33,735 nt of DNA from NCBI GenBank assembly GCA_018813975.1, contig JAHJAQ010000028.1:1-33735 (forward strand), given 5' to 3'. Each line of letters starts with the position of its first letter. The first letter of the stretch is position 1. A program made the translations under genes and the position numbers. The notes below the pieces were generated by a model. That model saw nothing but the letters and a program-made list of their open reading frames with translations. It was not told the origin of the DNA and did not search any database. Below are positions 12,438 through 27,378 of the stretch, one piece after another. The stretch is from Candidatus Micrarchaeota archaeon (lineage in GTDB: Archaea > Iainarchaeota > Iainarchaeia > Iainarchaeales > JAGVWC01).

Positions 12438-12857
12438 ATGAAGTCTTTGACCGAGCACTTATGGTTTCAGATTCCTTCCAGAAGGGGTTTTGTGAACATT
12501 ACCCCCAAAATCGAAGAATTGGTGCAAAAAAGCAAGGTACAAGAAGGATTGTGTTTGGTAAATGCCATGCACATTACCGCAAGCGTTTTCATTAACGATG
12601 ATGAGCCTGGCTTGCACGCTGATTTTGAAAAATGGTTACAAGAACTAGCCCCGGAAAAACCTTACAACACGTATCGCCACAACGATACCGGAGAAGATAA
12701 TGCGGATGCGCACTTAAAGCGCACGATAATGGGTCGCGAAGTTACTGTTGCGATTACAAATGGAAAATTGGATGTGGGGCCCTGGGAACAAATCTTTTAC
12801 GGCGAGTTTGACGGCAAGCGCAAAAAAAGAGTACTTGTAAAAATCATTGGCGAGTAA
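12438..12857 (+). CDS. yjbQ: YjbQ/UPF0047 family protein (secondary thiamine-phosphate synthase-type enzyme)
   Basis: 139 aa, the typical family size. It shows the family-typical pattern throughout: [51 protein letters not shown]....[58 protein letters not shown]. Confidence 0.88.
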
Positions 12858-13482: not shown

Positions 13483-16400
13483 GTGAAAATCGGCAAGTTT
13501 GATGTTGGGGAATACGTTGTCCGCGAAATGGGGGGCAAAAAACACCTTGTTTTTGACTGTAAAAACTGCGTTTATGGAAGCAGTTTATCGGATGATTCTG
13601 CTTGTCGATTCCATGCCATTGCTATTTTACAAGAAGTAGAAGCCAAATTACTCGTTCTAGCCGATGTGTACGAGCGTGTATATGATGAACAGCAAACCGA
13701 ATTAGTCAAAGAAATTGCGTTAATGGCCAAGCGGTTTGAAAACGAATCCATTTGGAGTTATGCTCACCTTGGAACCCAAGATTCCGAGTGTGAGCAAACC
13801 TTTGCTTCTAGGCACACTATTGTAGTGAGAATAGCGCATGATTTGGCTCGATTTGATCCGGTCATGGCCTATCTTACGTGCTTGCAAGAAATCAAAAAAG
13901 AAACCGGTCGCGCAACCGGATTGAATGAGGGTGGAAGAGCCTGTAGCAAGGTTTTTTTGGATACTTTACTGTATTTGAAAAATCGTTTTGAACAAACCGG
14001 TTTGATTGGTAAAACAAAAGAATACTTGTTAAAGTTGCGGAGCATTCCTGACACCAAAGACGTTTACAAGTCATTATTAGAGGCGCAAATCAAACCCGCG
14101 TTTATTGGTTCGCGGTTATTGTTTGGGGAAACCGAAGAACTAGAACTATTGGATGAGTACTCTGTGGGAAGAGCAGCGGTTCAAATTTTTTCTCATCCCA
14201 ATAAAATCGAGAAATTGTATTTTTTGAATCCGCCGGAATACACACTGCCACCCGAAAAATATTTTGTGTTAAGCAAAACAAAAGAAATTGTCGCGTCCTA
14301 CAAACCCGGCTCCACCACCTTGAGTGGCATTGCCAAAAGTAGAAAATATTTTGAACGGATTTATGAAAGCACGATTCATGATATTGGCCAAGCCAACCAA
14401 ATTTTTTTAAGTCCGGAAGAAGCAAAAGAGTTAGCAGAGATTGTCGCGCGGTACACGGTTGGGTATGGAATCTTAGAATTGATTTTGGGAGACCGGCATT
14501 TAACCGATATCTTTTTGGATTCTCCGATTGGCATGAAACCGATTTATGTGGTGCACGAGGATTATGGACAATGCCAAACCAATATTTTGTATACTGATGA
14601 TGAAGCCAATGCATTGGTTTCCAAAATGCGTGCCATGAGTGGAAGGCCATTTGATGAAGTGCATCCAGTACTGGATTTTGACTTGCCCGACTTGGAAACC
14701 CGGGTGGCTGTTATTGGAAAACCACTTGCACCTGATGGAACTGCTTTTGCTTTTCGCTTGCACAAAGTAACGCCATGGACCTTGCCCCAATTCATTGATA
14801 ACAATTTCATTAATCCGCTTGGCGCGGGTTTATTGAGTTTTTTTGTGGACCAACAAGCCACGATGCTTATTACGGGTTCTAGGGGGAGTGGAAAATGTGT
14901 GGATGGTGGTAGCCTGCTACAGCTTGGAAATGGCCAGACGGAAAAAATAAAAAAAATAATCGATCCGATAATCAAAAAAGCACAGAGAACTATTGAATTG
15001 GCAGATGGTGTTTGCATTGACTTGCAGGAAAATGGTATTCAATTGGAAACCGTTACCATGACTCCGGGTTTGAAGACACAAATTGTTCCAGTTTCAAAGG
15101 TTTGGAGAAGGGCTGCTCCTAAAAAAATGGTTTCAGTAACCTTGCGATCAGGAAAGCGTGTTGTTACGACGCCAGAGCATCCATTCTTTTTGACAGAAAA
15201 GGGGAAAATTATCCAGAAAAGAGCGGATGAATTAACCATATGCGATTTTATTGCAACACCAAGGATCATTCCAGCGAAACAGGACAATAATTATTCCACT
15301 GACTGGATTCCAACCAGTAGGTCTCTTGAACCGAAACTGTGCGGAATTGAAAGAGAAATTCAGGAGTTTTTGTGCTCTTATTCAAAAAATAATAGTCTCA
15401 AAGAGCTTGCAACCAAAGCACGCCTTCCCTATAAAACAATTCTTAACATAAAGAGCGGGGTAAGAAAAACAATTTCTCTTAGCGAACTTCGAAGCATTTC
15501 AGGTATTCTCGGATTGGATTATTATCCCCTTGTCGAAAAAGCATCTTATTGGATTTTTCGAAATTCTCCCAATCGGATTAATGCCGGTTTTTTCTTCAAA
15601 ACCATTAATAACAATACAAAAGCGGCCCGGTTTTTGGGTCTTCTTTTGGGGGACGGACATATCGATGAAAAGTCGATCTCGTTCACCAACACCAACATTG
15701 GTTTGCTGGAAGAATTCCGGACATTGTGTCGGGAATTATTCGGGATAAAAGCCTACATTTGTTTCCCAAAAAACCGCTCTCCTCATTGCATGGTTACTTC
15801 AGTCGGGCTTTCTAGGCTGATTTCCTTGCGATTTGGCATTCCTTTTGGCAAAAAAGCGGGCATACAAGAGATGCCAAAGGAAATCGTTATGGGTTCGGAA
15901 GCGGTTCTTTCAGAATTTTTGAGGGCCTATTTTGACTGCGATGGATCGGTTCATATTCAAAAAAGGCTTGTTGACCTGTCTACCGCCAGTAAAAAGATGG
16001 CTTTTGACATTCAAAACGCGCTTCACCGGTTTGGCATCATTTCGTTTTTAAGAGCAAAGACAGTTAGAAGAAAAGAGTATTATATCGTAGCCATGTCGGG
16101 AGAAAACGCGTTTGTTTTTTCTCAAAAAATTGGCTTCAGTTTAAGTTCAAAAAAAGAAAAACTTGCACAGGCATTTTTAGAAGAGAAATTTAACACGAAT
16201 ATTGATATTGTTCCAAATTGTCTTCCTTTCCTTCAGACCATTCAAAAGTGCCACGGTGTTTTTACTGCTAGAATGGTAACGCTTGACCAAAAGAACATTT
16301 CCAGAAAAAAACTGCAAAGGTTTATTTCAAGTTCAGATTCGGGGCTGGTGGAAATTGAGGATTTGAAAAAGTTGGCGTGCTCGGATATTTTTTGGGACGA

Positions 16401-18930
16401 AATAACGGAAGTCCAAAGAATCGATTACGAAAAAGAATTTGTATATGATCTGACAATTGAAGGAACGCAAAATTTTGTTGTGAACGGAATAATCGCACAC
16501 AACACTTCTTTAGTGCAAGCGTTAATGCTTGAAATAGTACAAGGCACGCGGATCATTTTGCAAGAAGACAGTGTAACTGGTGATTCTAGAATTTTGGTTG
16601 AGCGGAACAATAAAATGGAATATACTACTGTTGGTGAATTGATTGATGGTTTGATTGGAAAATATGGTTGTATTAATGTCAATGACGTAGACTTATTGGA
16701 TGCTAATCCTGAAGATATTAGTGTTTTCTCGTTGAATAAACAAAGTAAAATAAAATTGTCTCGTGTGTCCCAGTTTTCTAGGCATCAAGTAAAAAAAGAT
16801 ATTTTAAAGGTTAGTACTGCTAGTGGAAAAGACCTGAAGGTAACAAAAGATCACTCTCTTTTTGGTCTTAATACGGAGGGTAGAATTGTTCCTGTTAAAA
16901 CAAGTGATTTAAAAGTAGGGCAGCGAATTGCTACTCCGTTGCGTTTGCCATTTAGCTCGAATGAAGTGGAAAAACTTAGTGTCTTGCCTTTACTAAATAA
17001 TCGTCCAAAGGCTATTTTGTCTTCTATAAACTTGTGTTCTTGGATTCAACAAAATTGGAAAACTGTTAAGGAATTAGCTCGAAAAAAGCGTTATAGTAAG
17101 TCTATGCCAAGCGCTTGGAAGCGCTGTTCTATTCTTCCTGCGACCATTTTTTTTGAAGTACAGCAAAAAAATCCACGCTATTTTCCAGATTTGCGCTTTA
17201 AGTTGCAGGGCCTTTCTAAATCCATCCCTGTTGAATGGGAGCTTGATGCTGATTTAGTTGCTTTTTGTGGTCTGTGGCTAGCCGATGGTTGCTATGACAA
17301 CCGTTTTGCTGCTATTATTTCTGCAGGACATCCGTCTCTAAAAAATCTTGTCCAATCCGTTGCTAACAAAGCTGGTCTTACAATGTGCCAACACAGCGAC
17401 GGCTTTTCTCCAATGATTTCAAATATTAATCTGGTTTTTTTAATGAAAAATTTGCTAGAGCTTACTGGCAATTCTTATACTAAAAAGATTCCAAACTGGG
17501 TTTTTTCTTTATCGGATGAAATGCGAGGAGTATTTTTGAAAGGACTTTTTAGTGGTGATGGTTATGCAACCAAAAAAGAAATTGGCATTTCGCTTTGCTC
17601 TAAGGAAATGATTCGTCAAATTCAAACTTTGTTGTTGTCTTTTGGAATTTCAGTGCGTGCTCGCAAGTTTGTGAAAAAAGATAAAACTTTTGTTTGTAAA
17701 ATAAGCCATGTTAAAAACGTGCGTTTGTTTAAACAATTTATTGGTTTTTTTGAGGAGTACAAGTGCAAGCGTCTTGAAAAACTATGCGCTCATGTTCCAA
17801 CTCAAGATAATTCTGATACGATTCCGCTTTCTATTGAAACCAAAGAAAAAGTAGTTGAACAGCTTAAAGGTTTTAGTCGCTGTGATTATATTGCGCGCGG
17901 TTCTCAGATTGGTCGCACTAAATTAAACGCTCTTTTGAAGCAGAACCAATCTTGCACTAGTCTTTTGTTAAAAGAATTACAACAACTTGTAAGTTCTGAT
18001 GTTTTCTGGGATGAGGTTATTAAAATCGAAAAAGTGGATGGGGGCATTCACACGGTTTACGATTTTTCAGTTCCGGAATGCGAGAACTTTGTTTGCGAGA
18101 ATATAATCGCTCACAACACTTTGGAAATTCCTGCGGAGTACATGAAAAATATTGGTTTTAATATTCAAAGACTAAAAACTCGTTCTCCAATTTCTGTTAG
18201 TAAAACAGAGAGTGAAGTTGCTCCGGAAGAAGCATTGCGAACTGCTTTAAGGCTTGGTGATTCTGCACTAATAATTGGAGAGGTTCGTTCTGTAGAAGCA
18301 AGAGTATTGTATGAGGCTATGCGAATTGGAGCTGCCGGAAACATTGTTTTGGGAAGTATTCATGGTGATTCGGCGTATAGTGTATGGGATCGTGTAGTCA
18401 ATGATTTGGGCGTTCCCAATACTTCTTTTAAAGCAACTGATGTGGTTGTTGTCGCAAGGCCCATTCGATTTGAAGGTTCCTTGAAAAGGCAACGGCGTGT
18501 GGTACAGGTAACCGAGGTTAAAAAGCATTGGACCCAAGATCCCGATCAAGAAAACGCGTTATTGGATTTAATGTTGTACACTGCCAAAAATGATAAGTTG
18601 GGGTTTCAAGAGGACAGCTTAAAAGACTCCGAGTTGTTTCAAAAGTTATCCGCTACGAGTGGATTGAATATGCGTGAAATGTGGACCGCTATTAAAGCCA
18701 ATGCGTCTTCAAAAGCGTTTTTAGTGGATTTAAAAAACAAGCATGATTTGCCCGCATTATTAGAGGCAGAGAATTATGCCAAGTGTACTAACAAGTATTT
18801 GCTGTTGCGCGAAGAACAAATCGAAGCGGGCAAAAAAGTGGATTATGATGTGTTATTGGGAAAGTGGAAGTTTTGGGTGCAAAACAGTGTTGCCAAGCGC
18901 TTACTAGAACAAAAACACAAAAAGAAATAA
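13483..18930 (+). CDS. Type II/IV secretion-superfamily ATPase (archaeal FlaI/PilB/KlbA-like pilus assembly ATPase) precursor carrying two inteins; predicted spliced product 763 aa
   Basis: GTG start. Extein motifs: GYGILELILGDRHLTDIFLDSP (the FlaI-type G.G.LE.L..D..ITDI motif); Walker A GSRGSGK//TS split by intein 1; RIILQED//TLEIP (compare the IED-T-x-E-L Asp box) split by intein 2; Walker B/Arg region LRLGDSALIIGEVRSVEA; His box GSIHGDSA. The next gene encodes a FlaJ/TadC-like protein. Confidence 0.9.
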   Translation: MKIGKFDVGEYVVREMGGKKHLVFDCKNCVYGSSLSDDSACRFHAIAILQEVEAKLLVLADVYERVYDEQQTELVKEIALMAKRFENESIWSYAHLGTQDSECEQTFASRHTIVVRIAHDLARFDPVMAYLTCLQEIKKETGRATGLNEGGRACSKVFLDTLLYLKNRFEQTGLIGKTKEYLLKLRSIPDTKDVYKSLLEAQIKPAFIGSRLLFGETEELELLDEYSVGRAAVQIFSHPNKIEKLYFLNPPEYTLPPEKYFVLSKTKEIVASYKPGSTTLSGIAKSRKYFERIYESTIHDIGQANQIFLSPEEAKELAEIVARYTVGYGILELILGDRHLTDIFLDSPIGMKPIYVVHEDYGQCQTNILYTDDEANALVSKMRAMSGRPFDEVHPVLDFDLPDLETRVAVIGKPLAPDGTAFAFRLHKVTPWTLPQFIDNNFINPLGAGLLSFFVDQQATMLITGSRGSGKCVDGGSLLQLGNGQTEKIKKIIDPIIKKAQRTIELADGVCIDLQENGIQLETVTMTPGLKTQIVPVSKVWRRAAPKKMVSVTLRSGKRVVTTPEHPFFLTEKGKIIQKRADELTICDFIATPRIIPAKQDNNYSTDWIPTSRSLEPKLCGIEREIQEFLCSYSKNNSLKELATKARLPYKTILNIKSGVRKTISLSELRSISGILGLDYYPLVEKASYWIFRNSPNRINAGFFFKTINNNTKAARFLGLLLGDGHIDEKSISFTNTNIGLLEEFRTLCRELFGIKAYICFPKNRSPHCMVTSVGLSRLISLRFGIPFGKKAGIQEMPKEIVMGSEAVLSEFLRAYFDCDGSVHIQKRLVDLSTASKKMAFDIQNALHRFGIISFLRAKTVRRKEYYIVAMSGENAFVFSQKIGFSLSSKKEKLAQAFLEEKFNTNIDIVPNCLPFLQTIQKCHGVFTARMVTLDQKNISRKKLQRFISSSDSGLVEIEDLKKLACSDIFWDEITEVQRIDYEKEFVYDLTIEGTQNFVVNGIIAHNTSLVQALMLEIVQGTRIILQEDSVTGDSRILVERNNKMEYTTVGELIDGLIGKYGCINVNDVDLLDANPEDISVFSLNKQSKIKLSRVSQFSRHQVKKDILKVSTASGKDLKVTKDHSLFGLNTEGRIVPVKTSDLKVGQRIATPLRLPFSSNEVEKLSVLPLLNNRPKAILSSINLCSWIQQNWKTVKELARKKRYSKSMPSAWKRCSILPATIFFEVQQKNPRYFPDLRFKLQGLSKSIPVEWELDADLVAFCGLWLADGCYDNRFAAIISAGHPSLKNLVQSVANKAGLTMCQHSDGFSPMISNINLVFLMKNLLELTGNSYTKKIPNWVFSLSDEMRGVFLKGLFSGDGYATKKEIGISLCSKEMIRQIQTLLLSFGISVRARKFVKKDKTFVCKISHVKNVRLFKQFIGFFEEYKCKRLEKLCAHVPTQDNSDTIPLSIETKEKVVEQLKGFSRCDYIARGSQIGRTKLNALLKQNQSCTSLLLKELQQLVSSDVFWDEVIKIEKVDGGIHTVYDFSVPECENFVCENIIAHNTLEIPAEYMKNIGFNIQRLKTRSPISVSKTESEVAPEEALRTALRLGDSALIIGEVRSVEARVLYEAMRIGAAGNIVLGSIHGDSAYSVWDRVVNDLGVPNTSFKATDVVVVARPIRFEGSLKRQRRVVQVTEVKKHWTQDPDQENALLDLMLYTAKNDKLGFQEDSLKDSELFQKLSATSGLNMREMWTAIKANASSKAFLVDLKNKHDLPALLEAENYAKCTNKYLLLREEQIEAGKKVDYDVLLGKWKFWVQNSVAKRLLEQKHKKK
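14896..16503 (+). mobile_element. Intein 1 (536 aa, Cys1 ... His-Asn / +1 Thr) with a LAGLIDADG homing-endonuclease domain, inserted in the P-loop between GK and T
   Basis: Block A: CVDGGSLLQLGNG directly after GSRGSGK. Block B: VVTTPEHPF (TxxH). LAGLIDADG motifs: FLGLLLGDGHI and FLRAYFDCDGSV. Blocks F/G: DIFWDEITEV...VYDLTIEGTQNFVVNGIIAHN followed by TSLVQAL. Codon positions were checked against the ORF frame (TGT at 14896, AAC at 16501-16503). Confidence 0.85.
16570..18117 (+). mobile_element. Intein 2 (516 aa, Ser1 ... His-Asn / +1 Thr) with a LAGLIDADG homing-endonuclease domain, inserted between QED and TLEIP
   Basis: Block A: SVTGDSRILVERNN. Block B: LKVTKDHSLF (TxxH). LAGLIDADG motifs: FCGLWLADGCYD and FLKGLFSGDGYA. 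Blocks F/G: DVFWDEVIKIEKV...VYDFSVPECENFVCENIIAHN followed by TLEIPAEY. Removing it restores RIILQEDTLEIP, which matches the conserved ATPase motif. Only 22 extein residues (16504..16569) separate it from intein 1. Confidence 0.8.
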
Positions 18931-18961
18931 CAATACTTTTTTACGGAATCGTGGTTAGAGT

Positions 18962-21331: not shown

Positions 21332-21333
21332 AA

Positions 21334-21783
21334 GTGAAAAAGAAAAGGCTAAACCAAAAAGGAGAATTTGGTGTTTTTCGATTGCTCATTGGAGCGGTTC
21401 TTGGACTCGCACTATTGTTAGTGGTGTTGTCTATTATTGCTGATGTGGAAGAACAAAAGTATCGAATTAGTGCCTTGCATTTTTCGGATGGTTTTTCTTC
21501 TGCGATAAACCTTCCGAATGGAACGCCGGTCCAACAAGAAGACTTGTTTTTTAAACAAGGCGAAGTTTTTACGGATTCTGCTTTAGCAAAAAAATTTAAT
21601 TTTGAAGACGAAACGTGTATTCTTTTTTTTACAGACCATTCAGGGGTTTCGGTTTCAGCTGATCAGCATATTGCGCGTATTATACATCCTGTTCACACGG
21701 ATGTTTTTTTTGACTGCAAAAATATTGGTGCTTGCAGGCCTCATTGTCGAGTCTCTTTTGGAAAAGAGCTCCCGATTCGCTGA
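21334..21783 (+). CDS. Prepilin-like protein (class III signal peptide-like N-terminus), 4 Cys
   Basis: GTG start with GGAGG (21323-21327) 6 nt upstream. The N-terminus is MKKKRLNQKGEFGVFRLLIGAVLGLALLLVVLSII: basic head, K-G, then a hydrophobic helix. Confidence 0.65.
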   Translation: MKKKRLNQKGEFGVFRLLIGAVLGLALLLVVLSIIADVEEQKYRISALHFSDGFSSAINLPNGTPVQQEDLFFKQGEVFTDSALAKKFNFEDETCILFFTDHSGVSVSADQHIARIIHPVHTDVFFDCKNIGACRPHCRVSFGKELPIR

Positions 21784-21803
21784 TAATCGCGGATAACCAT
21801 AGC

Positions 21804-21811
21804 TTTAAATA
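21804..21811 (+). promoter_or_regulatory. Candidate TATA box (TTTAAATA) upstream of the pilin gene at 21838
   Basis: Centred about 30 nt upstream of the ATG at 21838, with no SD in between. This fits a leaderless or short-leader archaeal transcript starting an internal pilin transcription unit. Confidence 0.4.
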
Positions 21812-21837
21812 CGAGTTTTGCTTTTTATCTTCTTGTT

Positions 21838-22362
21838 ATGTCATTGAATTCCAAAGGACAAGGATCGGGTGTTTTTCAATTATTGATTGCTGCCGTAGTA
21901 GCCTTGGCTATTTTGGGAGTGTTACTGGGCATTATTGGTGGCTTGCCCCCATTGGGCAGCCAAGACCCGATTGAAGCTTCTCGAAACGGATTAAAAGACG
22001 CGTTTACCCAAGTGGGCAGTCCGCAGTTTTCTTCCAAGGTAACGATTACCAAGGATACGGTTTTTACGCCACGCGGAGTGGCACCACGCGAATTGGGTAT
22101 TAGTATTGATCATGTTTGTGTTGGTGTAGCCAAGGCATTGGGTGATTCTTTTAGTATTACGGATGAATTTACACCAGACGCAATTGTGTATTCGGGCTCT
22201 CGTTCTTTGGATGTAAAGATTGGCGCGATTTGTGAGACCGGCGACGATATTGATGCGGCTGCAAATGATGTTTTTCAAGGTGCAATTGACGATTTTGATA
22301 ATGATTGCGAAGATAATGGTTCTTCTGAAACCTATTGTGTAGTGGCTATTCTGCCACCCTAA
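21838..22362 (+). CDS. Archaeal type IV prepilin-like protein (KGQ-type class III signal), 4 Cys
   Basis: The N-terminus is MSLNSKGQGSGVFQLLIAAVVALAILGVLLGIIGG. K-G-Q followed by a ~25-aa hydrophobic helix matches the archaeal prepilin cleavage context ([KR]-G then Q at +1). Confidence 0.78.
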   Translation: MSLNSKGQGSGVFQLLIAAVVALAILGVLLGIIGGLPPLGSQDPIEASRNGLKDAFTQVGSPQFSSKVTITKDTVFTPRGVAPRELGISIDHVCVGVAKALGDSFSITDEFTPDAIVYSGSRSLDVKIGAICETGDDIDAAANDVFQGAIDDFDNDCEDNGSSETYCVVAILPP

Positions 22363-22432
22363 AACCATTTTTAACTACTTTTTTTTCTTTTCCATTTGTT
22401 TTATATAGCTCTTTATCGCTCTTTATTGTTGT

Positions 22433-22603
22433 ATGCGCTCCTTGAAAGAATTGTTGAAAGAAAAGCGTTCGCAGGGCGAATGGAATGCCATGTACATGCT
22501 CATTGTCCTGATTATTGCGGCCTTGTTGTTGATTACGGTTATAAAGCCCATGTTTAAGCAGTCTCAACGCCAAATCAGAGATGTCAAAGAGGCTGTAGAG
22601 TGA
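22433..22603 (+). CDS. Small (56 aa) membrane protein with a pilin-like leader, missing from the ORF track (below the 60-aa cutoff)
   Basis: Hand translation gives MRSLKELLKEKRSQGEWNAMYMLIVLIIAALLLITVIKPMFKQSQRQIRDVKEAVE, then a stop at 22601-22603. TTTTATATA at 22399-22407 is about 29 nt upstream of the ATG. Its stop overlaps the GTG start (22600) of the next pilin gene (GTGA). It fills an otherwise unexplained 237-nt gap in a tightly packed operon. Confidence 0.5.
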   Translation: MRSLKELLKEKRSQGEWNAMYMLIVLIIAALLLITVIKPMFKQSQRQIRDVKEAVE

Positions 22604-23166
22604 TTGCCATGTCCAAATCAAGGGGCCAATCCTCTGCCCCTTTCGAAGTACTCATTGCGGTTATCATAATGGGTTTTGTATTGTTAATGGGCATTCAAGC
22701 CATTGAATTTTTATCCAAACAACAATGCAAAGCCCAAATAAAATCAGAGGCTTCTGATCTAAAAGCTGCGGTTCAAAACGCGATTAGGGGTGATTCTGTT
22801 GTACTCAATTTTTTTCCACCCCAGTGTTTTGATGAAGAAAGAGAAATGCAATTGCGTCGCGTAGCCTCTCGCGCGAGTTGTCGCTCGATTTGTGAAAAAG
22901 AAATGGATGAATGCCTTTTTTTTACCTATCGAGCCGAAGATTTTGGGTATGACTTGTGCTTGGATAATGCCCCCATTTACACGGATTTTTTGGATTCTTC
23001 TAACTGTCAAGATTTGGGAAGCGATTATGTTCTAATCGATTTTTTGAACCCTTCAAATTCAGGTGGAAACCCTGTGTTAGAGCGTGGCGTGTACACTTTG
23101 CAAAACAAGACTGGTAGTGCAGAAACCGTTCCAAAGATTTGCGCGTATTATTATAACCAAACATAA
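22600..23166 (+). CDS. Archaeal type IV prepilin-like protein (RGQ-type class III signal), 8 Cys
   Basis: The N-terminus is M(IAM)SKSRGQSSAPFEVLIAVIIMGFVLLMGI. The start is either GTG at 22600 (AAAGAGG SD-like at 22586-22592, 7 nt upstream) or ATG at 22609. Confidence 0.78.
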   Translation: MIAMSKSRGQSSAPFEVLIAVIIMGFVLLMGIQAIEFLSKQQCKAQIKSEASDLKAAVQNAIRGDSVVLNFFPPQCFDEEREMQLRRVASRASCRSICEKEMDECLFFTYRAEDFGYDLCLDNAPIYTDFLDSSNCQDLGSDYVLIDFLNPSNSGGNPVLERGVYTLQNKTGSAETVPKICAYYYNQT

Positions 23167-23180
23167 AAGGAAGGAAAAAA

Positions 23181-23885
23181 ATGCTGGCGTTTATTCTAAG
23201 CAAAATGAATTTGCTGTTAATGGTTACTGCTATTTTTGCGATTATGGCCTATTTTACTTTTTTTGTGAGCCAAAGCGTTGTTTTAAGAGAAGCCCAAGAA
23301 GTATTGAATCGTTTTTCAGAGGACACGTATGGCGTACTAACCTCTAGTGGACAATGCCATCAAACAATTGTTCCCATTCCTCATTACATTTATGCCGTGG
23401 GAAGCGGAGAAAGGCGTAACCAACTGCGTTTTTTAGTAAGCATTAGTAAAATAAATATTCCGGGTGAAAAAACCCAATTGAGTTTTTCACTCTTGCGCAA
23501 AAAAGATGAAAAAGTATTGGCCGCCAAATTGTTTGCCACGAATGCAGAAGTTAACTTGTATAGTTGGGATCCTTCTACGGGTGGGACTATTGCCGAGGAA
23601 ACAGGGAGCGATCCAACGATTGTATTGAATCCGGTTTCAGAGCCATTGGAAACCGATTCCTTATTGCTCATAAAAGAAGTGTATCATGGTAGCACTAATT
23701 TGTATGCGGTGCCGTGTAATAATGAGGCCGCAGTTTGTGCCGCCAATTATGGCCAACTCACTTGTTTAGTTAAAAAATCGCGTGGAATTAGTGCATGTAC
23801 TGGGGATTGTAGTAATCCAAGTGATGCTTGTTTGAAAGAAGAGGGTTTTAATTGTGAGGTTGGAATTGCAACACCGGGATCCTAA
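23181..23885 (+). CDS. N-terminally anchored Cys-rich extracellular protein (pilus-associated, pilin-like), 8 Cys
   Basis: The ATG is preceded by AAGGAAGG (23167-23174). The N-terminus is MLAFILSKMNLLLMVTAIFAIMAYFTFFV, a hydrophobic helix without a canonical [KR]G cleavage context. The C-terminal region is Cys-dense (CNNEAAVCAANYGQLTCLVKKSRGISACTGDCSNPSDACLKEEGFNC). Confidence 0.65.
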   Translation: MLAFILSKMNLLLMVTAIFAIMAYFTFFVSQSVVLREAQEVLNRFSEDTYGVLTSSGQCHQTIVPIPHYIYAVGSGERRNQLRFLVSISKINIPGEKTQLSFSLLRKKDEKVLAAKLFATNAEVNLYSWDPSTGGTIAEETGSDPTIVLNPVSEPLETDSLLLIKEVYHGSTNLYAVPCNNEAAVCAANYGQLTCLVKKSRGISACTGDCSNPSDACLKEEGFNCEVGIATPGS

Positions 23886-24471
23886 GCCAAAAAATCAGCG
23901 TGGATTTGTGGGGCCGATTGGCGATGACTTGCCATCCTTGATTCCATTAACTGTTGCCTTGCTCATTTTTTTTAGTGCGTTTGGTTTTGCGTTTAATTCT
24001 TTTGAAGAAAAAAAAATCGAGTTTGACCAGCGCTTATTGTTATTGGGTCTTGGCAAGACCATGAAAGGAGACAGCTTATTGGATTTGTATTCTGAATGGG
24101 AAATTGCTTGTAATAGCCTAGAGGTTTCTCGTTATAATTTTAGGGCCGTGGTTTTCACAATTTCAACCAATGATGGTGCGATTTTTTATAATTATGAATT
24201 CTTTAAAGAATGGCAAGCAAAAGATGATCCTGGAGATTATTTTACTTGGACGGATAATGATCGTATTTTTCAAATGCTTGATGCCAGTGGAACTTCTCAT
24301 CCACTAGTATGTGATCGAGAAGGCACTCACGCTACGATTGGGTCCTTGGATGACATTTCTAGAGAGATTACCTTAAACAAAAATCCCTTGCGCGTGAATT
24401 ATCCACTAGCGGTTTTAGACGATAAAAAGTTTCGTCCTGCAATATTGTCGGTGATGGTATGGTACAATTAA
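23854..24471 (+). CDS. Prepilin-like protein (RG-type leader similar to the archaeal flagellin/pilin N-terminal domain), 2 Cys
   Basis: GTG start with GAGGG (23841-23845) 8 nt upstream, overlapping the previous gene by 32 nt. The N-terminus is ...KNQRGFVGPIGDDLPSLIPLTVALLIFFSAFGFAF, which resembles the RGVSPVIG... archaeal pilin-like N-terminal domain pattern. Confidence 0.6.
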   Translation: MRLELQHRDPKPKNQRGFVGPIGDDLPSLIPLTVALLIFFSAFGFAFNSFEEKKIEFDQRLLLLGLGKTMKGDSLLDLYSEWEIACNSLEVSRYNFRAVVFTISTNDGAIFYNYEFFKEWQAKDDPGDYFTWTDNDRIFQMLDASGTSHPLVCDREGTHATIGSLDDISREITLNKNPLRVNYPLAVLDDKKFRPAILSVMVWYN

Positions 24472-25787
24472 GACTAAACAATAGAGGTCAGTCCTCGATT
24501 ATGGATGCGTTTTTCTTTTTTTTAATTGTAAGTGGCTTGGCATTGTTTTTATTGTCGTTTGGAACCAATTATGGACTTTCGTTGGATGAACAAACCGAAA
24601 AAGAACAGTTTCGCGAATATGTTTCAAGCGCTTTAAAAGTAATCTTGTATTCCAGTACTCCCAGGGATCCACTGTGTAGTTTAGAGGAATGCCCTTCGAG
24701 CGGTAATCCGCCAGAAGAAATTGATTTTTTAATGGCTGCCATAAAAGAAGATTTTGCAGATGACGGTGGCTTGGATGAAACCGGGAAAAAACTGAAAGAT
24801 ATGATTCGTGCGATCATGCAGCCACTAGGAGATTCCGTGGATTATGCCTTTTATTTGTACATGCCCGACCAAATCGATAATCAAATACCTTATTTTTTGT
24901 TTTACAAGAGCGAATTTGATCCAGCTAATTGTCCGGGAGTCGAACAAGAATGCCACGTGTTTCAATACTGTAAGCCATTGGATCGTTTGGCCATGGACCA
25001 ATTCTTTTTTACCTTGCCTGGTGTTTCGCGCACGAGTTCTAGAACGGTTTTTTTGTCCGCACCAATCGTTCCGGGTCCTCGTCCAGATCAAGTAGAAAGC
25101 GAAGTGCATTTTGCGGTTTGGTCTAGTATTCGTCTTGACGATAAACCCGGGCCTGATAAACCAAATTATCCCGCATTTGCTGGCTTGGATTGTTGTATAG
25201 CTGGAACTCCTGGTTGTACTGCTGAAGAAAAGTTTGTAGGGCCCGGCGTGCAAAGCGGTGTTGCCTTTTTGTTTCCGCCTTCCACTACGTTATACCAAAA
25301 CGCAGATGGTTCTTTTAATTCTCGAACCCTCAAATTTGAAATAAAAAACGAGTCTAGTTTTCAGCTATCTAATTTACAGATTTCCAATGCGCCTGATGCT
25401 TCGTTTAATTGTATGCCTGCTTGGGTTTCCGGGCCTGTTACCATTCCCCCTATGGATGCTGCTATTGAAGTAGCTAAAGTAGATTTTATTTTGGGTTCTA
25501 GTGATGCAGCTAAAAGCCATATTGACGAGGGTTTTTGGGTGCATCTTACGGATGAAGATTTGGAATGGAACCAATCAAATGAGAGCAAGTTGGTTGCCGC
25601 GGTGTATGATGCCAGCGAGGATTTTTCCATTCGCTTGTTCAAAAAAGAATTTGTTTCCGTTACAGTAAAGAGTCCTGATGCTGATCCGCCCGTGAACCGC
25701 CAGTGCAAATTCCAATTATCCTTTTCAGACCCCGGCGGAAACTACACGAAAAACCGTTTTTTTATAATCAATCGGGTTTTCCAATAA
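24459..25787 (+). CDS. Large archaeal type IV prepilin-like protein (RGQ-type class III signal), 10 Cys
   Basis: The N-terminus is MVQLRLNNRGQSSIMDAFFFFLIVSGLALFLLSFG, with the same RGQSS context as the 22600 gene. 442 aa. It overlaps the previous gene by 13 nt. Confidence 0.75.
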   Translation: MVQLRLNNRGQSSIMDAFFFFLIVSGLALFLLSFGTNYGLSLDEQTEKEQFREYVSSALKVILYSSTPRDPLCSLEECPSSGNPPEEIDFLMAAIKEDFADDGGLDETGKKLKDMIRAIMQPLGDSVDYAFYLYMPDQIDNQIPYFLFYKSEFDPANCPGVEQECHVFQYCKPLDRLAMDQFFFTLPGVSRTSSRTVFLSAPIVPGPRPDQVESEVHFAVWSSIRLDDKPGPDKPNYPAFAGLDCCIAGTPGCTAEEKFVGPGVQSGVAFLFPPSTTLYQNADGSFNSRTLKFEIKNESSFQLSNLQISNAPDASFNCMPAWVSGPVTIPPMDAAIEVAKVDFILGSSDAAKSHIDEGFWVHLTDEDLEWNQSNESKLVAAVYDASEDFSIRLFKKEFVSVTVKSPDADPPVNRQCKFQLSFSDPGGNYTKNRFFIINRVFQ

Positions 25788-25812: not shown

Positions 25813-27378
25813 TTATTGTTCTTTTACCTTGGTTTGGCACGTGGGACAGGTATAATAGGTTTGGCTGTCTTGTTTTTTGAAAGAACTCGCACAACTGGAA
25901 CAAAAGCCGGTTCCGCATTCATGACAGTACAAGATTTGGTCGGTTTCTTTTTGGCAGTTCGGGCATTTTTGGGTTTCTTCTTTTTTACTTGGGGTTTCTC
26001 CTTTTTCTATTTTTTCAAGTTCTTCTATTTCTCCCAACTCACTGTCTTCAGTTCCTTCTTTTTTTTCGCCTAGTAGTTCTTTGAATTCCATTTGTTTTAG
26101 TTTGTCGAGTTGGGCTTGAGAATCACTGGATTCTGCTGGTTTGGGGTTTTCTATTATTTCTTCTTTTTTATAGCGATCCCGAAACCGTCCATGCTTTCTA
26201 CTAGAATAACCGGTCTCTTCATTTCCTTCTCCAGATAACCTTCCAAGTTTGGTTTTGAGTTCTTCCAATTCTTTTTGTTTTTTTTGTTCGCGCGTGGTTT
26301 GATCGGTAATGTTTTGTGCTAGTGTATCCAATTCGTTTGTGGCATGGTCTTTTCCATGTCGAGATTCTTTTTTGAGGTCATGCAAGACTGTTCCAAATGA
26401 TGATGCATCTCGTTCAGTATATAGTTCGGCATAAGGATCATTGAAATATTCTTTTTGTGGGCTTGTTTCTCCTTTTCGTTCAAATCGCTTTAACCTTCGC
26501 GGGGTGCGTTGTTGTCCTGAACGTGGCGGACCATTGCGCGGATCATAGTGTAAGGAAGAAGAAGCTTCTCGTGCTATAGTGGACTTTTTGGATTCTTTAT
26601 TTGGAGGTGCGTTATAATAGTGTTCTTTTGATTTTCTTTTTCGACGCACTAAAAAAATAATACTGATGAGTGCCACAATACCACTGCCGGCGATTAAACC
26701 AATAGTGGTAAGGTTGTAGTTCGTGCTTTGCACTAAGGGTGTTTGGCTGCTAATGGCTAATGCGACCATATCAAATTCTGCTTTATTGTTTTGAATAATG
26801 CCATTTTGGGCATTAGTAATCATGCCGGGCAATTCCACTTGATAGGTCATTTCAAATCCCGCGGCTTTTAGAGCGGCCACGGAAGCAAAACTTTCCCCCA
26901 ATTCAAGTGGTGGTGTATCGCTTTTTGGAAATTCGATTAGACTTCCAAGTGTAGGATCAAAAGAATACGTGGTTCCCAAAAAGTCTTCTTGACTGGTGAT
27001 TGCTTCTTTCGGATACTGATAAGTTCCCGTAATGGTTACAACTCCTTCTTCCGTAGCTTGGCAATCTACATTGGATAGTTCTTGAACACCGGGCATACTA
27101 ATCGTCATGGACATTTCTGGAGTAGGGTTCGGATTGAGAATGTCATCACACAATTGATCAGGATCTAAATCAGGTATTGGAATACTGTTTGTTCCGTCGG
27201 GCATTTCACTCATGTCACTAAGCCCGGAAAGATCCATGGTCACGGTTACATTGGATAAACCGCTTGTGTTCACTTGTTCGAGAACATTCATTTTAATACA
27301 ACCAGTCAAAAAAAAGAGTAAACAAAAGAATGCCATCCAAAAAATGGTTTGCCGGTTTTTAGTGGGAAAAAATTTCAT
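25813..27378 (-). CDS. Lipobox-bearing bitopic membrane protein with a charged tail and a C-terminal double zinc ribbon
   Basis: The N-terminus is MKFFPTKNRQTIFWMAFFCLLFFLTGC (L-T-G-C lipobox). A mid-protein TM helix IGLIAGSGIVALISIIFLV is followed by RRKRKSK, then a K/E/R-rich ~230 aa segment. The C-terminus is CPNCQKETDQILYCHECGTGFCSSCAS...YYTCPTCQ. Confidence 0.75.
   Translation of the reverse strand: MKFFPTKNRQTIFWMAFFCLLFFLTGCIKMNVLEQVNTSGLSNVTVTMDLSGLSDMSEMPDGTNSIPIPDLDPDQLCDDILNPNPTPEMSMTISMPGVQELSNVDCQATEEGVVTITGTYQYPKEAITSQEDFLGTTYSFDPTLGSLIEFPKSDTPPLELGESFASVAALKAAGFEMTYQVELPGMITNAQNGIIQNNKAEFDMVALAISSQTPLVQSTNYNLTTIGLIAGSGIVALISIIFLVRRKRKSKEHYYNAPPNKESKKSTIAREASSSLHYDPRNGPPRSGQQRTPRRLKRFERKGETSPQKEYFNDPYAELYTERDASSFGTVLHDLKKESRHGKDHATNELDTLAQNITDQTTREQKKQKELEELKTKLGRLSGEGNEETGYSSRKHGRFRDRYKKEEIIENPKPAESSDSQAQLDKLKQMEFKELLGEKKEGTEDSELGEIEELEKIEKGETPSKKEETQKCPNCQKETDQILYCHECGTGFCSSCASSFKKQDSQTYYTCPTCQTKVKEQ

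What the first reader, a model, noticed from the sequence alone, without database searches (positions are those of the whole stretch)
13483..25787. Type IV pilus-like operon with seven consecutive pilin-like genes but no peptidase or archaellum accessory genes, embedded among giant surface proteins
Seen in sequence: the ATPase gene (13483), the FlaJ/TadC-like gene (18962) and seven small genes (21334, 21838, 22433, 22600, 23181, 23854, 24459) are packed head to tail. Gaps run from 2 nt up to 4-32-nt overlaps. Three N-termini carry K/R-G-Q followed by a hydrophobic helix (SKGQGSGVFQLLIAAVV, SRGQSSAPFEVLIAVII, NRGQSSIMDAFFFFLIV). Three more have K-G-E, Q-G-E or R-G-F contexts, and the seventh (23181) has only a hydrophobic N-terminal anchor. 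Established knowledge: archaeal class III signal peptides are cleaved after [KR]-[GA], and Gln at +1 characterises EppA-type pilin substrates in methanogens. ATPase plus FlaJ-like protein is the minimal archaeal T4P core. Inference: there is no archaellin-type protein and no FlaCDE/FGH, so this is an adhesion-pilus-type machine, not an archaellum. The unusually rich and size-diverse pilin set (56 to 442 aa) suggests a complex filament or tip structure. Flanked by a 2929-aa adhesin-like protein, an archaeosortase and a 1536-aa anchored protein, the locus looks like a dedicated attachment island, plausibly for cell-cell (host) contact in a DPANN-type episymbiont.
Basis: partly seen in the sequence, partly recalled or inferred. 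Interest (0 to 1): 0.75.

Follow-up and report, generated by a model that had tools for sequence, protein, structure and literature searches.

The report
DPANN archaeal pilus operon with inteins

Summary
All nine ORFs sit at the stated coordinates on one strand, and six of the seven small proteins carry a class III-type signal. A simple scan finds these six in a row; shuffled sequence gives about one hit per window.

The "ATPase" gene is 1815 aa only because two intact LAGLIDADG inteins interrupt a 763-aa T2SSE/FlaI/TadA-type ATPase, in the Walker A loop and in the Asp box.

The 789-aa protein is a divergent T2SSF (TadC/FlaJ-like) platform protein.

Related loci from 80 species genomes show a conserved order: giant protein, archaeosortase, ATPase, platform, seven pilin-like genes, membrane proteins, sortase-anchored giant protein. 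Nearly all records are labelled Iainarchaeota/Diapherotrites.

Ortholog alignments fix the signal as [KR]-[GA] followed by Gln in five families.

That protein is a headless mini-pilin of about 43 mature residues with its own TATA box. It resembles EpdE of Methanococcus and bacterial Flp.

Best reading: an Epd/Tad-like surface pilus, not an archaellum.

Not shown: a prepilin peptidase, which is absent from every locus examined, and any role in host contact.

New variant of a known kind; moderate interest.

The parts
13483..18930 (+). Precursor gene of the pilus-assembly ATPase (1815 aa; the spliced extein is 763 aa)
   Evidence: The spliced extein hits Pfam T2SSE at 5.5e-17 (61.9 bits, cutoff 24.9). 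NCBIfam gives FlaI 3e-37 and TadA 3.5e-34, both below their equivalog cutoffs. PDB sequence hits are 2oap (8e-29), CpaF (3e-24) and FlaI (1.4e-17). The spliced junctions read GSRGSGK|TSL and IILQED|TLEIP, colinear with intein-free orthologs.
14896..16503 (+). Intein 1 (536 aa) with a LAGLIDADG homing endonuclease, inserted in Walker A (GSGK|C...AHN|TS)
   Evidence: Pfam Intein_splicing 1.3e-54 and LAGLIDADG_3 1.7e-35 for the whole ORF. PDB sequence hits are to VMA, CDC21, PI-PkoII, TFIIB and MJ0781 inteins. Cys1, TPEH (block B) and terminal HN followed by Thr are read from the sequence. This site is occupied only in the window among the fetched ATPase loci.
16570..18117 (+). Intein 2 (516 aa) with a LAGLIDADG homing endonuclease, inserted in the Asp box (QED|S...AHN|TLE)
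   Evidence: Ser1, TKDH (block B) and terminal HN followed by Thr are read from the sequence. The same site is occupied in 11 other related loci at 41-53% identity.
18962..21331 (+). Platform membrane protein (789 aa), a divergent T2SSF / TadC-FlaJ-like protein
   Evidence: The window protein scores only E 0.023 (15.1 bits) against Pfam T2SSF. 17 of 19 aligned orthologs hit T2SSF, best E 2.7e-6. Many homologs carry a precomputed PF00482 hit or the name 'type II secretion system F family protein'. The AF2 model (pLDDT 76.5) is a helical polytopic protein. It has one local Foldseek match to the OutF cytoplasmic domain 5nbg_B (probability 0.87, TM 0.60). The gene lies downstream of the ATPase, with the intervening DNA mostly about 10-150 nt and up to about 4 kb in a few loci, in every related locus that holds an ATPase match.
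21334..21783 (+). Pilin-like protein p149 (KG|EFGVFRLLIGA), probably co-transcribed with the ATPase and platform genes
   Evidence: The ortholog consensus is [KRS]G|Q[AE]F..[FY][RK]LLIGA. It is a full-length paralog of p174 (hhalign 99.9%). No TATA-like box is found upstream in 0 of 45 orthologs.
21804..21811 (+). TATA-like box TTTAAATA, about 30 nt upstream of the p174 start codon
   Evidence: A TATA-like box is present at -45 to -20 in 30 of 55 orthologs.
21838..22362 (+). Pilin-like protein p174 (SKG|QGSGVFQLLIAAVV) with a globular head
   Evidence: [KR]GQ....F.LLIAAVVA is present in all 59 orthologs. The AF2 model (pLDDT 83) shows an N-terminal helix (10-33), a kink, a second helix (44-57) and then a six-strand beta domain. 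Two Cys are invariant. No significant Foldseek match to solved pilins.
22400..22407 (+). TATA-like box TTTATATA, about 29 nt upstream of the p56 start codon and preceded by a T-rich run (22375-22392)
   Evidence: A TATA-like box is present in 20 of 37 orthologs and a T5+ run upstream in 23 of 37.
22433..22603 (+). p56, a headless mini-pilin candidate (leader MRSLKELLKEKRS | QGEWNAMYMLIVLIIAALLLITVIKPMF...; about 43 mature residues)
   Evidence: It is the most conserved small protein of the cluster, up to 76% identity. The family consensus is [KR][GA]|[QSDNA][SG]EW..[VI]Y[ML]LIV..IAA.LLI..[VI]KP[ML]F. Of the 52 hits in a search of 1.84 billion representatives, 51 are 48-94 aa; the other is a 1527-aa protein matched in six stretches. 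Pfam Flp_Fap gives weak hits in 2 of 52 members, best E 0.0015.
22600..23166 (+). Pilin-like protein p188 (SRG|QSSAPFEVLIAVII)
   Evidence: The ortholog consensus is [KR]G|QE.APFELL[VI]AVI[VI]MGFV. The N-terminal 80-95 residues are homologous to p174 and p149 (hhalign 97%).
23181..23885 (+). p234, a conserved membrane-anchored protein starting M-L-[GA]-F-[IT]-L-S-K; it may have a 3-residue leader or be uncleaved
   Evidence: It is unrelated to the other families by hhalign.
23854..24471 (+). p205, a class III-like protein with the near-invariant motif [KR]G|F[IL]GPIGDDLPSLIPL
   Evidence: It is unrelated to the other families by hhalign.
24459..25787 (+). p442, a pilin-like protein (NRG|QSSIMDAFFFFLIV) with a large head; the window copy carries about 150-200 extra C-terminal residues
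   Evidence: The ortholog consensus is [KR]G|QAA.TDA.[YF]FL.IV. Most orthologs are 230-320 aa.
12860..13402 (-). Exosortase/archaeosortase-family protein (180 aa), divergent from the ATPase gene
   Evidence: NCBIfam TIGR04178 gives 2e-9, 37.6 bits against a cutoff of 23. Cys83, Arg125 and His145 are invariant or nearly so in 49 orthologs. It is present in 28 of 28 related loci that have at least 7 kb of upstream sequence.
28965..33575 (+). 1536-aa secreted protein with a C-terminal tripartite sorting signal (FNLNSVPE + TM + RTRIKPRR); the likely sortase substrate
   Evidence: Orthologs conserve PFNLPS[LM]PE + TM + basic tail. It is present in 25 of 33 loci with enough downstream sequence.
2847..11636 (-). 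2929-aa giant surface protein with CarboxypepD_reg / bMG3 Ig-like repeats and a conserved N-terminal cytoplasmic module plus TM
   Evidence: Pfam. The N-terminal module is conserved in orthologs. A homolog is present in 24 of 28 loci with at least 7 kb of upstream sequence.
25813..27378 (-). p521: lipobox-like N-terminus (FLTGC), one further TM, a charged cytoplasmic tail and a C-terminal Cys4-type zinc ribbon; a conserved cluster member
   Evidence: It is present in 23 of 33 loci.
28337..28870 (+). p177, a small polytopic membrane protein and conserved cluster member
   Evidence: It is present in 22 of 33 loci. It has no conserved Asp, so it is not a hidden aspartyl peptidase.

Best explanation
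The locus encodes a type IV filament (T4P-like) assembly machine of a DPANN archaeon, most likely of the phylum Iainarchaeota. Its nearest analogues are the Epd pilus of Methanococcus and the bacterial Tad/Flp pilus.

Proposed mechanism, with steps marked as shown or inferred:
1. The 1815-aa precursor splices out two inteins and yields a 763-aa hexameric-type secretion ATPase. Shown: intact intein motifs and restored Walker A and Asp box. Inferred: that splicing actually occurs.
2. The ATPase docks on the 789-aa TadC/FlaJ-like platform protein. Inferred from family and synteny.
3. Seven membrane-inserted precursors are trimmed by a class III signal peptidase encoded elsewhere, after [KR]-[GA] and with Gln at +1 in five of them. 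The motif is shown; cleavage and the enzyme are inferred.
4. The ATPase and platform extract the processed subunits from the membrane and polymerise them through their hydrophobic N-terminal helices.
5. The headless 43-residue p56 and/or the globular p174 are the bulk subunits, because each has its own TATA box.
6. p149, p188, p234, p205 and p442 act as low-abundance priming or tip subunits.

The machine is one part of a lineage-wide cell-surface supercluster. The supercluster also holds an archaeosortase, its C-terminally sorted 1536-aa substrate and N-terminally anchored giant Ig-repeat proteins. The most likely role is therefore adhesion to surfaces or to other cells.
For: ATPase: T2SSE 5.5e-17 after in-silico splicing. 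It resembles FlaI and TadA and matches 2oap, CpaF and FlaI in the PDB. Walker A, the Asp box, Walker B (IIGEVR) and the His box (GSIHGD) are read in the extein.

Inteins.

Platform: T2SSF hits in 17 of 19 orthologs, source names and a local OutF match.

Signals: six consecutive hits against about one expected by chance. The motifs are conserved across 36-63 orthologs per family.

p174: a lollipop-type model.

p56: tiny, highly conserved and weakly Flp-like.

Promoters: TATA boxes occur upstream of p174 and p56 in more than half of their orthologs, against 0-23% for the other five families.

Gene order: conserved in 20 of 42 informative loci, and all seven genes are present in 25 of 42. The p174-p442 block moves as one unit in the rearranged loci.

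Literature: Gln at +1 is essential for EppA processing, and EpdE is a 6.4-kDa mature pilin with a 12-aa leader (PMC4390842). The main Epd pilin lacks a globular domain, like Tad (bioRxiv 10.64898/2026.04.22.720090).
Against: No prepilin peptidase (A24) gene is in the window, in the rest of the contig or in the flanks of 80 related loci.

None of 98 orthologs of the seven families matches a Pfam pilin model.

The p174 model has no significant Foldseek match to solved pilins.

The platform protein itself is below Pfam's T2SSF cutoff. Its family profile finds nothing in PDB sequences and does not match E. coli HofC.

There is one long platform gene rather than the two typical of Epd-type 'system 1'.

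p234 has no basic leader.

No filament has been observed, and the adhesion role rests on context only.
Confidence: 0.72

Rival explanations
1. The machine builds a short pseudopilus rather than an adhesive pilus. It would work like a type II secretion or bindosome-type device that helps export, display or organise the giant surface proteins encoded on both sides of it.
For: Synteny with giant proteins and the sortase is strict across the lineage (28 of 28, 24 of 28 and 25 of 33 loci). The giant proteins share a conserved N-terminal cytoplasmic module that ends in [KRH]G-IP[AS]FP plus a hydrophobic helix. TFF machines that functionalise surface proteins are discussed for archaea (bioRxiv 10.64898/2026.04.22.720090). 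NCBIfam gives a weak BasE (bindosome ATPase) hit at 1.4e-17.
Against: Archaea have no outer membrane that would need a piston. big1536 has an ordinary Sec-type signal and a sortase signal, so it needs no TFF machine. The giants' leader of about 48 residues is far longer than any known class III signal. p56 and p174 have their own promoters, as expected for bulk filament subunits.
Confidence: 0.12
2. It is a DNA-uptake (competence-type) pilus that scavenges nucleic acids for a genome-reduced archaeon.
For: T4P are often proposed for DNA uptake in ultra-small CPR and DPANN organisms (background knowledge). NCBIfam gives weak ComGA (1.5e-11) and ComGC (0.0069, for p56) hits.
Against: No ComEC or ComEA-like channel or DNA-binding gene lies in the conserved cluster. 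The conserved neighbours are adhesin-like surface proteins. The Com hits are far below their cutoffs.
Confidence: 0.07
3. It is an archaellum (motility) locus.
For: The best NCBIfam hit of the ATPase is FlaI (3e-37).
Against: That score (128 bits) is far below the equivalog cutoff of 550. There are no FlaH, FlaF/G, FlaC/D/E/X or archaellin domains in the window or in related loci.
Confidence: 0.01
4. The locus is inactive in this organism because the ATPase gene is disrupted by two large insertions.
For: Two insertions of 1.6 kb each sit in catalytic motifs. The Walker A insertion is unique to this genome among the fetched ATPase loci.
Against: Both insertions are in frame, and both carry all splicing residues: C1 or S1, TxxH, and HN followed by T. 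Both also carry two LAGLIDADG motifs. All downstream genes are intact. An independently assembled contig carries the platform and pilin-like genes with the same or nearly the same protein sequences (L002).
Confidence: 0.04

Closest known systems
Epd pilus of Methanococcus maripaludis (archaeal TFF 'system 1'; EppA-processed pilins)
   Same: Both have a secretion ATPase and TadC-like platform and several pilin-like genes that are all needed. Gln at +1 of the class III signal is shared. The major pilin is very small and headless in both (EpdE is 6.4 kDa mature with a 12-aa leader; p56 is about 43 residues with a 13-aa leader). Sources: PMC4390842 and bioRxiv 10.64898/2026.04.22.720090.
   Different: This locus has one 789-aa platform protein instead of two platform genes. 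Its ATPase has an N-terminal region of about 300 residues that is not covered by the FlaI model. There is no eppA-like peptidase in the cluster. The mini-pilin is encoded inside the cluster. No Pfam Class_IIIsignal match is found. The cluster is embedded with a sortase and giant proteins, and the ATPase carries inteins.
Bacterial Tad/Flp pilus (CpaF/TadA, TadB/C, Flp)
   Same: The ATPase aligns with CpaF (3e-24) and the TadA model (3.5e-34). The structural subunit is a 40-60-residue helix-only protein. Two of 52 p56-family members hit Pfam Flp_Fap weakly.
   Different: There is no secretin, no TadZ/RcpB/TadD/TadG and no TadV-type peptidase in the cluster. The Flp G|xxxxEY motif is absent. The organism is an archaeon.
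DPANN 'dark matter' type IV pili islands (Makarova, Wolf and Koonin 2019, PMC6393860, Fig. 2A)
   Same: It is the same kind of object: FlaI-like ATPase, TadC, surface proteins and a row of unannotatable proteins with signal peptides, which the authors inferred to be divergent pilins.
   Different: That paper gives a generic example. I found no text describing the Iainarchaeota-wide gene order, the seven families and their motifs, the sortase and giant-protein linkage, or the inteins.
Inteins in archaeal secretion ATPases (M. jannaschii KlbA / MJ0781 intein, PDB 2jmz)
   Same: It is a Hint-domain intein inside a VirB11/secretion-family ATPase of an archaeon. Both inteins here hit 2jmz (7.5e-9 and 4.2e-5).
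   Different: KlbA is a mini-intein without an endonuclease and starts with Ala (PMC2807308). Here there are two full-size LAGLIDADG inteins, 22 residues apart in the mature protein, and a third insertion site is used in a relative (L006).
Archaeosortase / exosortase sorting systems (ArtA with PGF-CTERM, PEP-CTERM)
   Same: It is a small polytopic enzyme with a conserved Cys-Arg-His set. It sits next to a large secreted protein ending in a short motif, a TM helix and a basic tail.
   Different: It fits no named subfamily: all specific NCBIfam models score below their cutoffs. The signal motif is (F)NLPS[LM]PE. It is fixed next to a TFF operon.

Membership tests
Type IV filament (T4P/TFF) assembly system | Secretion ATPase of the T2SSE/VirB11 family with Walker A, Asp box, Walker B and His box | tested here: met
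   The extein scores 61.9 bits against a cutoff of 24.9 for Pfam T2SSE. PDB homologs are 2oap, CpaF and FlaI. The motifs are read in the spliced sequence.
Type IV filament (T4P/TFF) assembly system | Polytopic platform protein of the T2SSF (PilC/TadC/FlaJ) family | tested here: inconclusive
   The window protein scores 15.1 bits against a cutoff of 25.2. However, 17 of 19 orthologs hit T2SSF, best E 2.7e-6. Sources name homologs T2SSF. There is a local fold match to the OutF domain, probability 0.87. No PDB sequence hit and no HofC hit. The internal two-domain repeat is not detected.
Type IV filament (T4P/TFF) assembly system | Substrates with a class III signal peptide: a short basic leader, a small residue at -1 and then about 20 hydrophobic residues | tested here: met
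   Six of seven proteins meet it, and the motif is conserved in each ortholog family. p234 has only a 3-residue uncharged leader.
Type IV filament (T4P/TFF) assembly system | Class III signal (prepilin) peptidase, family A24 | not testable with these tools
   It is absent from the window, from the rest of the contig and from the flanks of 80 related loci. The rest of the genome could not be read.
Known pilin sequence families (Pfam Class_IIIsignal, Pilin_N, N_methyl, Flp_Fap) | Match to the family model | tested here: not met
   None of 98 orthologs gives a credible hit; N_methyl appears in 2 at E 0.21. Flp_Fap appears in 2 of 52 p56 relatives at 0.0015, below any threshold of trust.
Type IV pilin fold | Long N-terminal alpha-helix packed on a C-terminal beta-sheet head | tested here: inconclusive
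   The p174 AF2 model (pLDDT 83) has this topology, but Foldseek finds no solved pilin. The other six proteins were not modelled.
Archaellum | FlaH, FlaF/FlaG, FlaC/D/E or FlaX, and archaellins next to FlaI/FlaJ | tested here: not met
   No such domains are found in the window proteins or in orthologs. The FlaI model scores 128 bits against a cutoff of 550.
Epd-type pilus (archaeal TFF system 1) | Gln at +1 of the pilin signals | tested here: met
   Five of the seven families have conserved Gln at +1.
Epd-type pilus (archaeal TFF system 1) | Two platform genes and a dedicated EppA peptidase in or near the cluster | tested here: not met
   There is a single 789-aa platform gene and no peptidase in any locus.
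Intein | Hint domain with a Cys/Ser at position 1, block B TxxH, terminal His-Asn and a nucleophile at +1; in frame and restoring the host motif | tested here: met
   Both elements meet it. Splicing in silico gives a sequence colinear with intein-free orthologs. Splicing activity itself was not tested.
Exosortase/archaeosortase | Family signature model, a conserved Cys-Arg-His set and a cognate C-terminal tripartite signal nearby | tested here: met
   TIGR04178 scores 37.6 bits against a cutoff of 23. C83, R125 and H145 are conserved. The big1536 C-terminus is conserved. No named subfamily reached its cutoff.

The most novel reading that the evidence does not exclude
The conserved roughly 30-kb supercluster is one functional unit, and the TFF machine handles the giant proteins themselves. 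The 2-3-thousand-residue Ig-repeat proteins carry a conserved 45-residue cytoplasmic N-terminal module followed by [KRH]G-IP[AS]FP and a hydrophobic helix. On this reading, that module is a new, long type of class III-like signal or docking domain. The giants would then be processed and mounted on, or presented by, the pilus as 'giant modular pilins' or tip adhesins. This would be a mode of TFF functionalisation not described so far.
Probability: 0.1. Interest if true: 0.8.

Novelty: new variant of a known kind. Interest (0 to 1): 0.5.

Why it matters
Iainarchaeota (Diapherotrites) are an uncultured DPANN phylum whose way of life, free-living or attached to hosts, is unsettled.

This work shows a cell-surface supercluster conserved across the lineage. 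It has a defined part list: motor, platform, seven subunit families with their signal motifs, two probable bulk subunits, a sortase with its substrate, and giant adhesin-like proteins. That gives concrete targets for imaging, proteomics and heterologous reconstitution. It also adds a lineage-specific variant to the catalogue of archaeal type IV filaments.

The headless p56 family is a further archaeal counterpart of Flp and EpdE. This bears on the proposed archaeal origin of bacterial Tad pili.

The double-intein ATPase is a natural case of two homing inteins only 22 residues apart in the catalytic core, with a third site used in relatives. It is useful for studying intein site preference and conditional splicing.

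None of this overturns current views. It extends them.

Tried and rejected
1. Prepilin peptidase in the neighbourhood. I clustered all unassigned ORFs of 80 loci. The recurrent ones are a 340-aa polytopic protein with no Pfam match and a DUF7544 membrane protein. A GxGD-type motif scan of all multi-TM ORFs found nothing. p177 has no conserved Asp.

2. Linking the platform protein to solved structures or to E. coli HofC. The profile against PDB sequences found nothing. hhalign against HofC found nothing. Whole-model Foldseek was swamped by unrelated helical proteins. An N-half against C-half hhalign found no repeat.

3. Foldseek of the p174 model against the PDB. No pilin matched; the best hit was SusE at probability 0.57.

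4. Pfam scans of 98 pilin-family orthologs and of 52 p56 relatives. No accepted pilin model matched.

5. Homolog search with the giants' N-terminal module. It returned only 10 short fragments and was uninformative.

6. Literature search for a prior description of this Iainarchaeota cluster. None was found. Only the generic DPANN statement in PMC6393860 and the 2026 TFF survey apply.

7. tRNA, Rfam and tandem-repeat scans of the window. Nothing relevant was found.

8. Placing the ATPase in the published clades 1-4. This was not possible without the reference sequences.

Full report
OBSERVATION

The quoted N-terminal strings are correct.

Spacing is tight:
- 31 nt between ATPase and platform
- 2 nt between platform and p149
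- 54 nt between p149 and p174
- 70 nt between p174 and p56
- a 4-nt overlap between p56 and p188
- 14 nt between p188 and p234
- a 32-nt overlap between p234 and p205
- a 13-nt overlap between p205 and p442

A crude class III-signal scan looked for [KR][GAS] followed within 10 residues by a 16-mer of mean hydropathy at least 2.0, all within the first 35 residues. It hits 9 of 152 ORFs. Six hits are the consecutive genes of the finding. Codon-shuffled windows give a mean of 0.96 and a maximum of 4. The pattern is therefore far beyond chance.

THE ATPase GENE HOLDS TWO INTEINS

The ORF is 1815 aa, about three times the size of FlaI or PilB. Pfam finds Intein_splicing (1.3e-54), LAGLIDADG_3 (1.7e-35) and only fragments of T2SSE.

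The boundaries can be read directly:
- Intein 1 covers aa 472-1007 (nt 14896-16503). It lies between GSGK and TS of the Walker A loop. It begins with Cys, has TPEH in block B and ends AHN followed by Thr.
- Intein 2 covers aa 1030-1545 (nt 16570-18117). It lies between QED and TLE of the Asp box. It begins with Ser, has TKDH and ends AHN followed by Thr.

Each carries two LAGLIDADG motifs. Both match solved inteins: VMA, CDC21, PI-PkoII, TFIIB and the MJ0781/KlbA intein. Only 22 extein residues separate them.

The in-silico spliced 763-aa protein scores 61.9 bits on T2SSE, against a cutoff of 24.9. It resembles FlaI (3e-37) and TadA (3.5e-34) models, though below their equivalog cutoffs. It matches A. 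fulgidus GspE2 (2oap, 8e-29), CpaF (3e-24) and FlaI (1.4e-17) in the PDB. Its junction region is colinear with intein-free orthologs (...GSRGSGKTSL...IIVQEDTLEIP...).

Among the related loci that hold the ATPase N-terminal part (72 besides the window's own contig):
- the Asp-box site is occupied in 11 others (41-53% identity)
- a third site (GEVR|[ST]EARV) is used in L006
- the Walker A site is occupied only in the window

Inteins in archaeal secretion ATPases are known; the KlbA intein is one (PMC2807308). The kind is therefore familiar, but the double arrangement is unusual.

THE PLATFORM PROTEIN

The 789-aa protein itself is below Pfam's T2SSF threshold (E 0.023). It has hundreds of full-length homologs (45-69% identity, 750-815 aa). 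They come from archaea labelled Diapherotrites, Iainarchaeum or Micrarchaeota. Several are named 'type II secretion system F family protein' or carry a precomputed PF00482 hit.

Seventeen of 19 aligned orthologs hit T2SSF, best E 2.7e-6. An AF2 model (pLDDT 76.5) is a polytopic helical protein with two small beta inserts. Its only meaningful Foldseek match is local, to the cytoplasmic domain of the T2SS protein OutF (probability 0.87, TM 0.60).

Profile searches against PDB sequences, against E. coli HofC and for an internal repeat all found nothing. I accept it as a divergent member of the family on orthologs, fold fragment and invariant position after the ATPase. The direct test on the window protein is inconclusive.

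SOURCE AND CONSERVATION

The window is positions 5555-39289 of contig JAHJFO010000028.1 of assembly GCA_018824985.1.

A scan of one genome per species found relatives of the platform protein in 239 stretches, and the best 80 loci were fetched. Nearly all records are Iainarchaeota/Diapherotrites, which NCBI places in kingdom Nanobdellati (DPANN). One is a complete 1.05-Mb genome (CP064981.1).

tblastn of every window protein against these loci shows that the whole neighbourhood is conserved. The order is:
- giant protein (-)
- sortase (-)
- ATPase, platform, p149, p174, p56, p188, p234, p205, p442 (+)
- p521 (-), sometimes p286 (-)
- p177 (+)
- big1536 (+)

Of 42 loci with enough downstream sequence, 25 have all seven small genes: 20 in the same order and 5 rearranged. 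In the rearranged loci the block p174...p442, sometimes together with p521, p177 and big1536, is inverted as a unit upstream of the ATPase. The ATPase, platform and p149 genes stay together.

Where the flank suffices, the neighbours are present as follows:
- sortase: 28 of 28 loci
- a homolog of the 2929-aa protein: 24 of 28
- big1536: 25 of 33
- p521: 23 of 33
- p177: 22 of 33

The GNAT and YjbQ genes (11746-12857) occur only in the window's own contig.

THE SEVEN SMALL PROTEINS

Ortholog sets of 36-63 sequences each give clear consensus N-termini:
- p149: [KRS]G|Q[AE]F..[FY][RK]LLIGA. The window copy, KG|EFGVF, has lost the Gln.
- p174: [KR]G|Q....F[KQ]LLIAAVVA.
- p188: [KR]G|QE.APFELL[VI]AVI.
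- p442: [KR]G|QAA.TDA.[YF]FL.IV.
- p56: [KR][A/S]|Q[SG]EW..[VI]YMLIV. The more distant members have [KR]G|[SDN].
- p205: [KR]G|F[IL]GPIGDDLPSLIPL.
- p234: starts MLGF[IT]LSK[LM]NLLIL.

Five families therefore have Gln at +1. This residue is essential for processing by the dedicated pilin peptidase EppA in M. maripaludis (PMC4390842).

Profile comparison gives these relationships:
- p149 and p174 are full-length paralogs (99.9%).
- p188 shares their N-terminal 80-95 residues (97%).
- p442 is weakly similar at the N-terminus only (58% probability to p149).
- p56, p234 and p205 are separate families.

None of 98 orthologs matches any Pfam pilin model. These are pilin-like by signal anatomy and context, not by membership of a curated family.

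The AF2 model of p174 (pLDDT 83) has the classical pilin layout: a long N-terminal helix with a kink, then a beta-sheet head, with two invariant cysteines. Foldseek finds no solved pilin.

WHICH SUBUNITS ARE ABUNDANT

p56 is the best conserved small protein, up to 76% identity. After the predicted cleavage it would be 43 residues: a hydrophobic helix plus a short polar tail.

A search of 1.84 billion representative proteins returns 52 hits. Of these, 51 are 48-94 aa; the other is a 1527-aa protein matched in six stretches. Two of them touch Pfam Flp_Fap weakly, best E 0.0015.

This parallels EpdE, the major Epd pilin, which is 6.4 kDa mature with a 12-aa leader (PMC4390842). It also parallels the statement that the main Epd pilin lacks a globular domain, like bacterial Tad pilins (bioRxiv 10.64898/2026.04.22.720090).

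TATA-like boxes lie 20-45 nt upstream of the start codon as follows:
- p174: 30 of 55 orthologs
- p56: 20 of 37 orthologs
- p149: 0 of 45
- p188: 8 of 35
- p234: 4 of 36
- p205: 0 of 23
- p442: 0 of 29

In the window they are TTTAAATA at 21804-21811 and TTTATATA at 22400-22407. The second is preceded by a T-rich run.

I infer three transcription units: [ATPase-platform-p149], [p174] and [p56-p188-p234-p205-p442]. p56 and/or p174 would be the bulk subunits and the other five minor subunits. This is inference and has not been shown.

SURROUNDINGS

The 180-aa protein at 12860-13402 (-) passes the exosortase/archaeosortase signature model (37.6 bits against a cutoff of 23). It keeps Cys83, Arg125 and His145 in 49 orthologs.

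big1536 has a Sec-type signal and ends in FNLNSVPE + TM + basic tail. Orthologs conserve PFNLPS[LM]PE + TM + basic tail. It is the probable sortase substrate.

The 2929-aa protein has CarboxypepD_reg and bMG3 Ig-like repeats.

Left of it on the same strand lie, in order:
- a 469-aa protein with another pilin-like N-terminus (MNQKA|FNLFTALVAFVMIVL)
- a 2661-aa giant that runs off the window start
- a CAP-domain protein
- a multi-TM protein
- a further giant

The giants share a conserved N-terminal module of about 45 cytoplasmic residues ending in [KRH]G-IP[AS]FP, followed by a TM helix.

WHAT IS MISSING

There is no A24 peptidase in the window, in the rest of the contig or in the flanks of any of the 80 related loci. 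This is common in archaea, where PibD, FlaK or EppA can be encoded elsewhere.

No archaellum-specific gene is present.

INTERPRETATION

The best-supported reading (confidence about 0.7) is an Epd/Tad-like surface pilus machine. It is specific to, and widely conserved in, a DPANN lineage, and it is fixed inside a larger cell-surface supercluster.

Adhesion is the most economical function given the neighbours, but nothing here shows it. Nothing shows a host either.

The rivals are less likely:
- a pseudopilus-type device serving the giant proteins (0.12)
- DNA uptake (0.07)
- inactivation by the insertions (0.04)
- an archaellum (0.01)

COMPARISON WITH THE LITERATURE

Makarova, Wolf and Koonin (PMC6393860) already noted that some DPANN genomes have T4P islands. 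In these, FlaI, TadC and surface proteins sit next to unannotatable proteins with signal peptides, 'diverse pilins'.

The 2016 census (PMC4858521) covered no DPANN beyond Nanoarchaeota.

The 2026 survey (10.64898/2026.04.22.720090) places some DPANN systems in 'system 1', which has two platform genes.

I found no description of the Iainarchaeota gene order, the seven families, the sortase and giant-protein linkage or the inteins.

I therefore rate it a new variant of a known kind, of moderate interest (0.5).

Noticed in passing
window 1-1233 (-), 2847-11636 (-); L083 11554-19539 and 20700-21410: Three giant proteins in tandem (2929 aa, 2661 aa and at least 1029 aa) share a conserved N-terminal module. 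It has about 45 cytoplasmic residues (...Y...ED.(Y/F)Y..LD(F/W)L(D/E).KG(I/V)PVY...) and usually ends in [KRH]G-IP[AS]FP before a TM helix. The module is conserved in most orthologs of the 2929-aa protein whose N-terminus was recovered in other genomes. It has no Pfam match. It could be a dedicated anchoring or targeting module.
   Followed up: partly
window 1377-2786 (-): A 469-aa protein lies directly downstream of the 2929-aa gene. Only one related locus (L041) has a homolog.
   Followed up: partly
L006 about 2729-4402 (ATPase ortholog): In this relative a third intein insertion site is used, in the Walker B region (GEVR|...HN|TEARVLYEAM). This ATPase family therefore has at least three intein sites, all in catalytic motifs.
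   Followed up: partly
window 11746-12857 (+): GNAT acetyltransferase and YjbQ/UPF0047 genes lie between the giant protein and the sortase only in the window's own contig. The other fetched loci lack them, so they look like a local insertion into the conserved cluster.
   Followed up: yes
window 25813-27378 (-): p521 has a lipobox-like N-terminus (LFFLTGC), an extracellular domain, one further TM helix, a long charged cytoplasmic tail and a C-terminal CxxC...CxxC...CxxC zinc ribbon. It is conserved in 23 of 33 loci. It may be a transmembrane adaptor or regulator of the cluster.
   Followed up: partly
window 24459-25787 (+): The window's p442 is about 150-200 residues longer at the C-terminus than most orthologs (230-320 aa). 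Only L003 (395 aa) is similar. It carries an extra C-terminal domain of unknown fold.
   Followed up: no
L027, L029, L034, L047 (record titles): Contigs carrying this archaeal cluster are deposited under Thaumarchaeota, Falkowbacteria and Chloroflexi MAG names. These are probably binning or labelling errors in the public records.
   Followed up: no
L005, L007, L009, L010, L045 and others, between the sortase and the ATPase: Thirteen related loci carry a polytopic membrane protein of about 340 aa with no Pfam match, on the ATPase strand just upstream of the ATPase. The window lacks it.
   Followed up: partly
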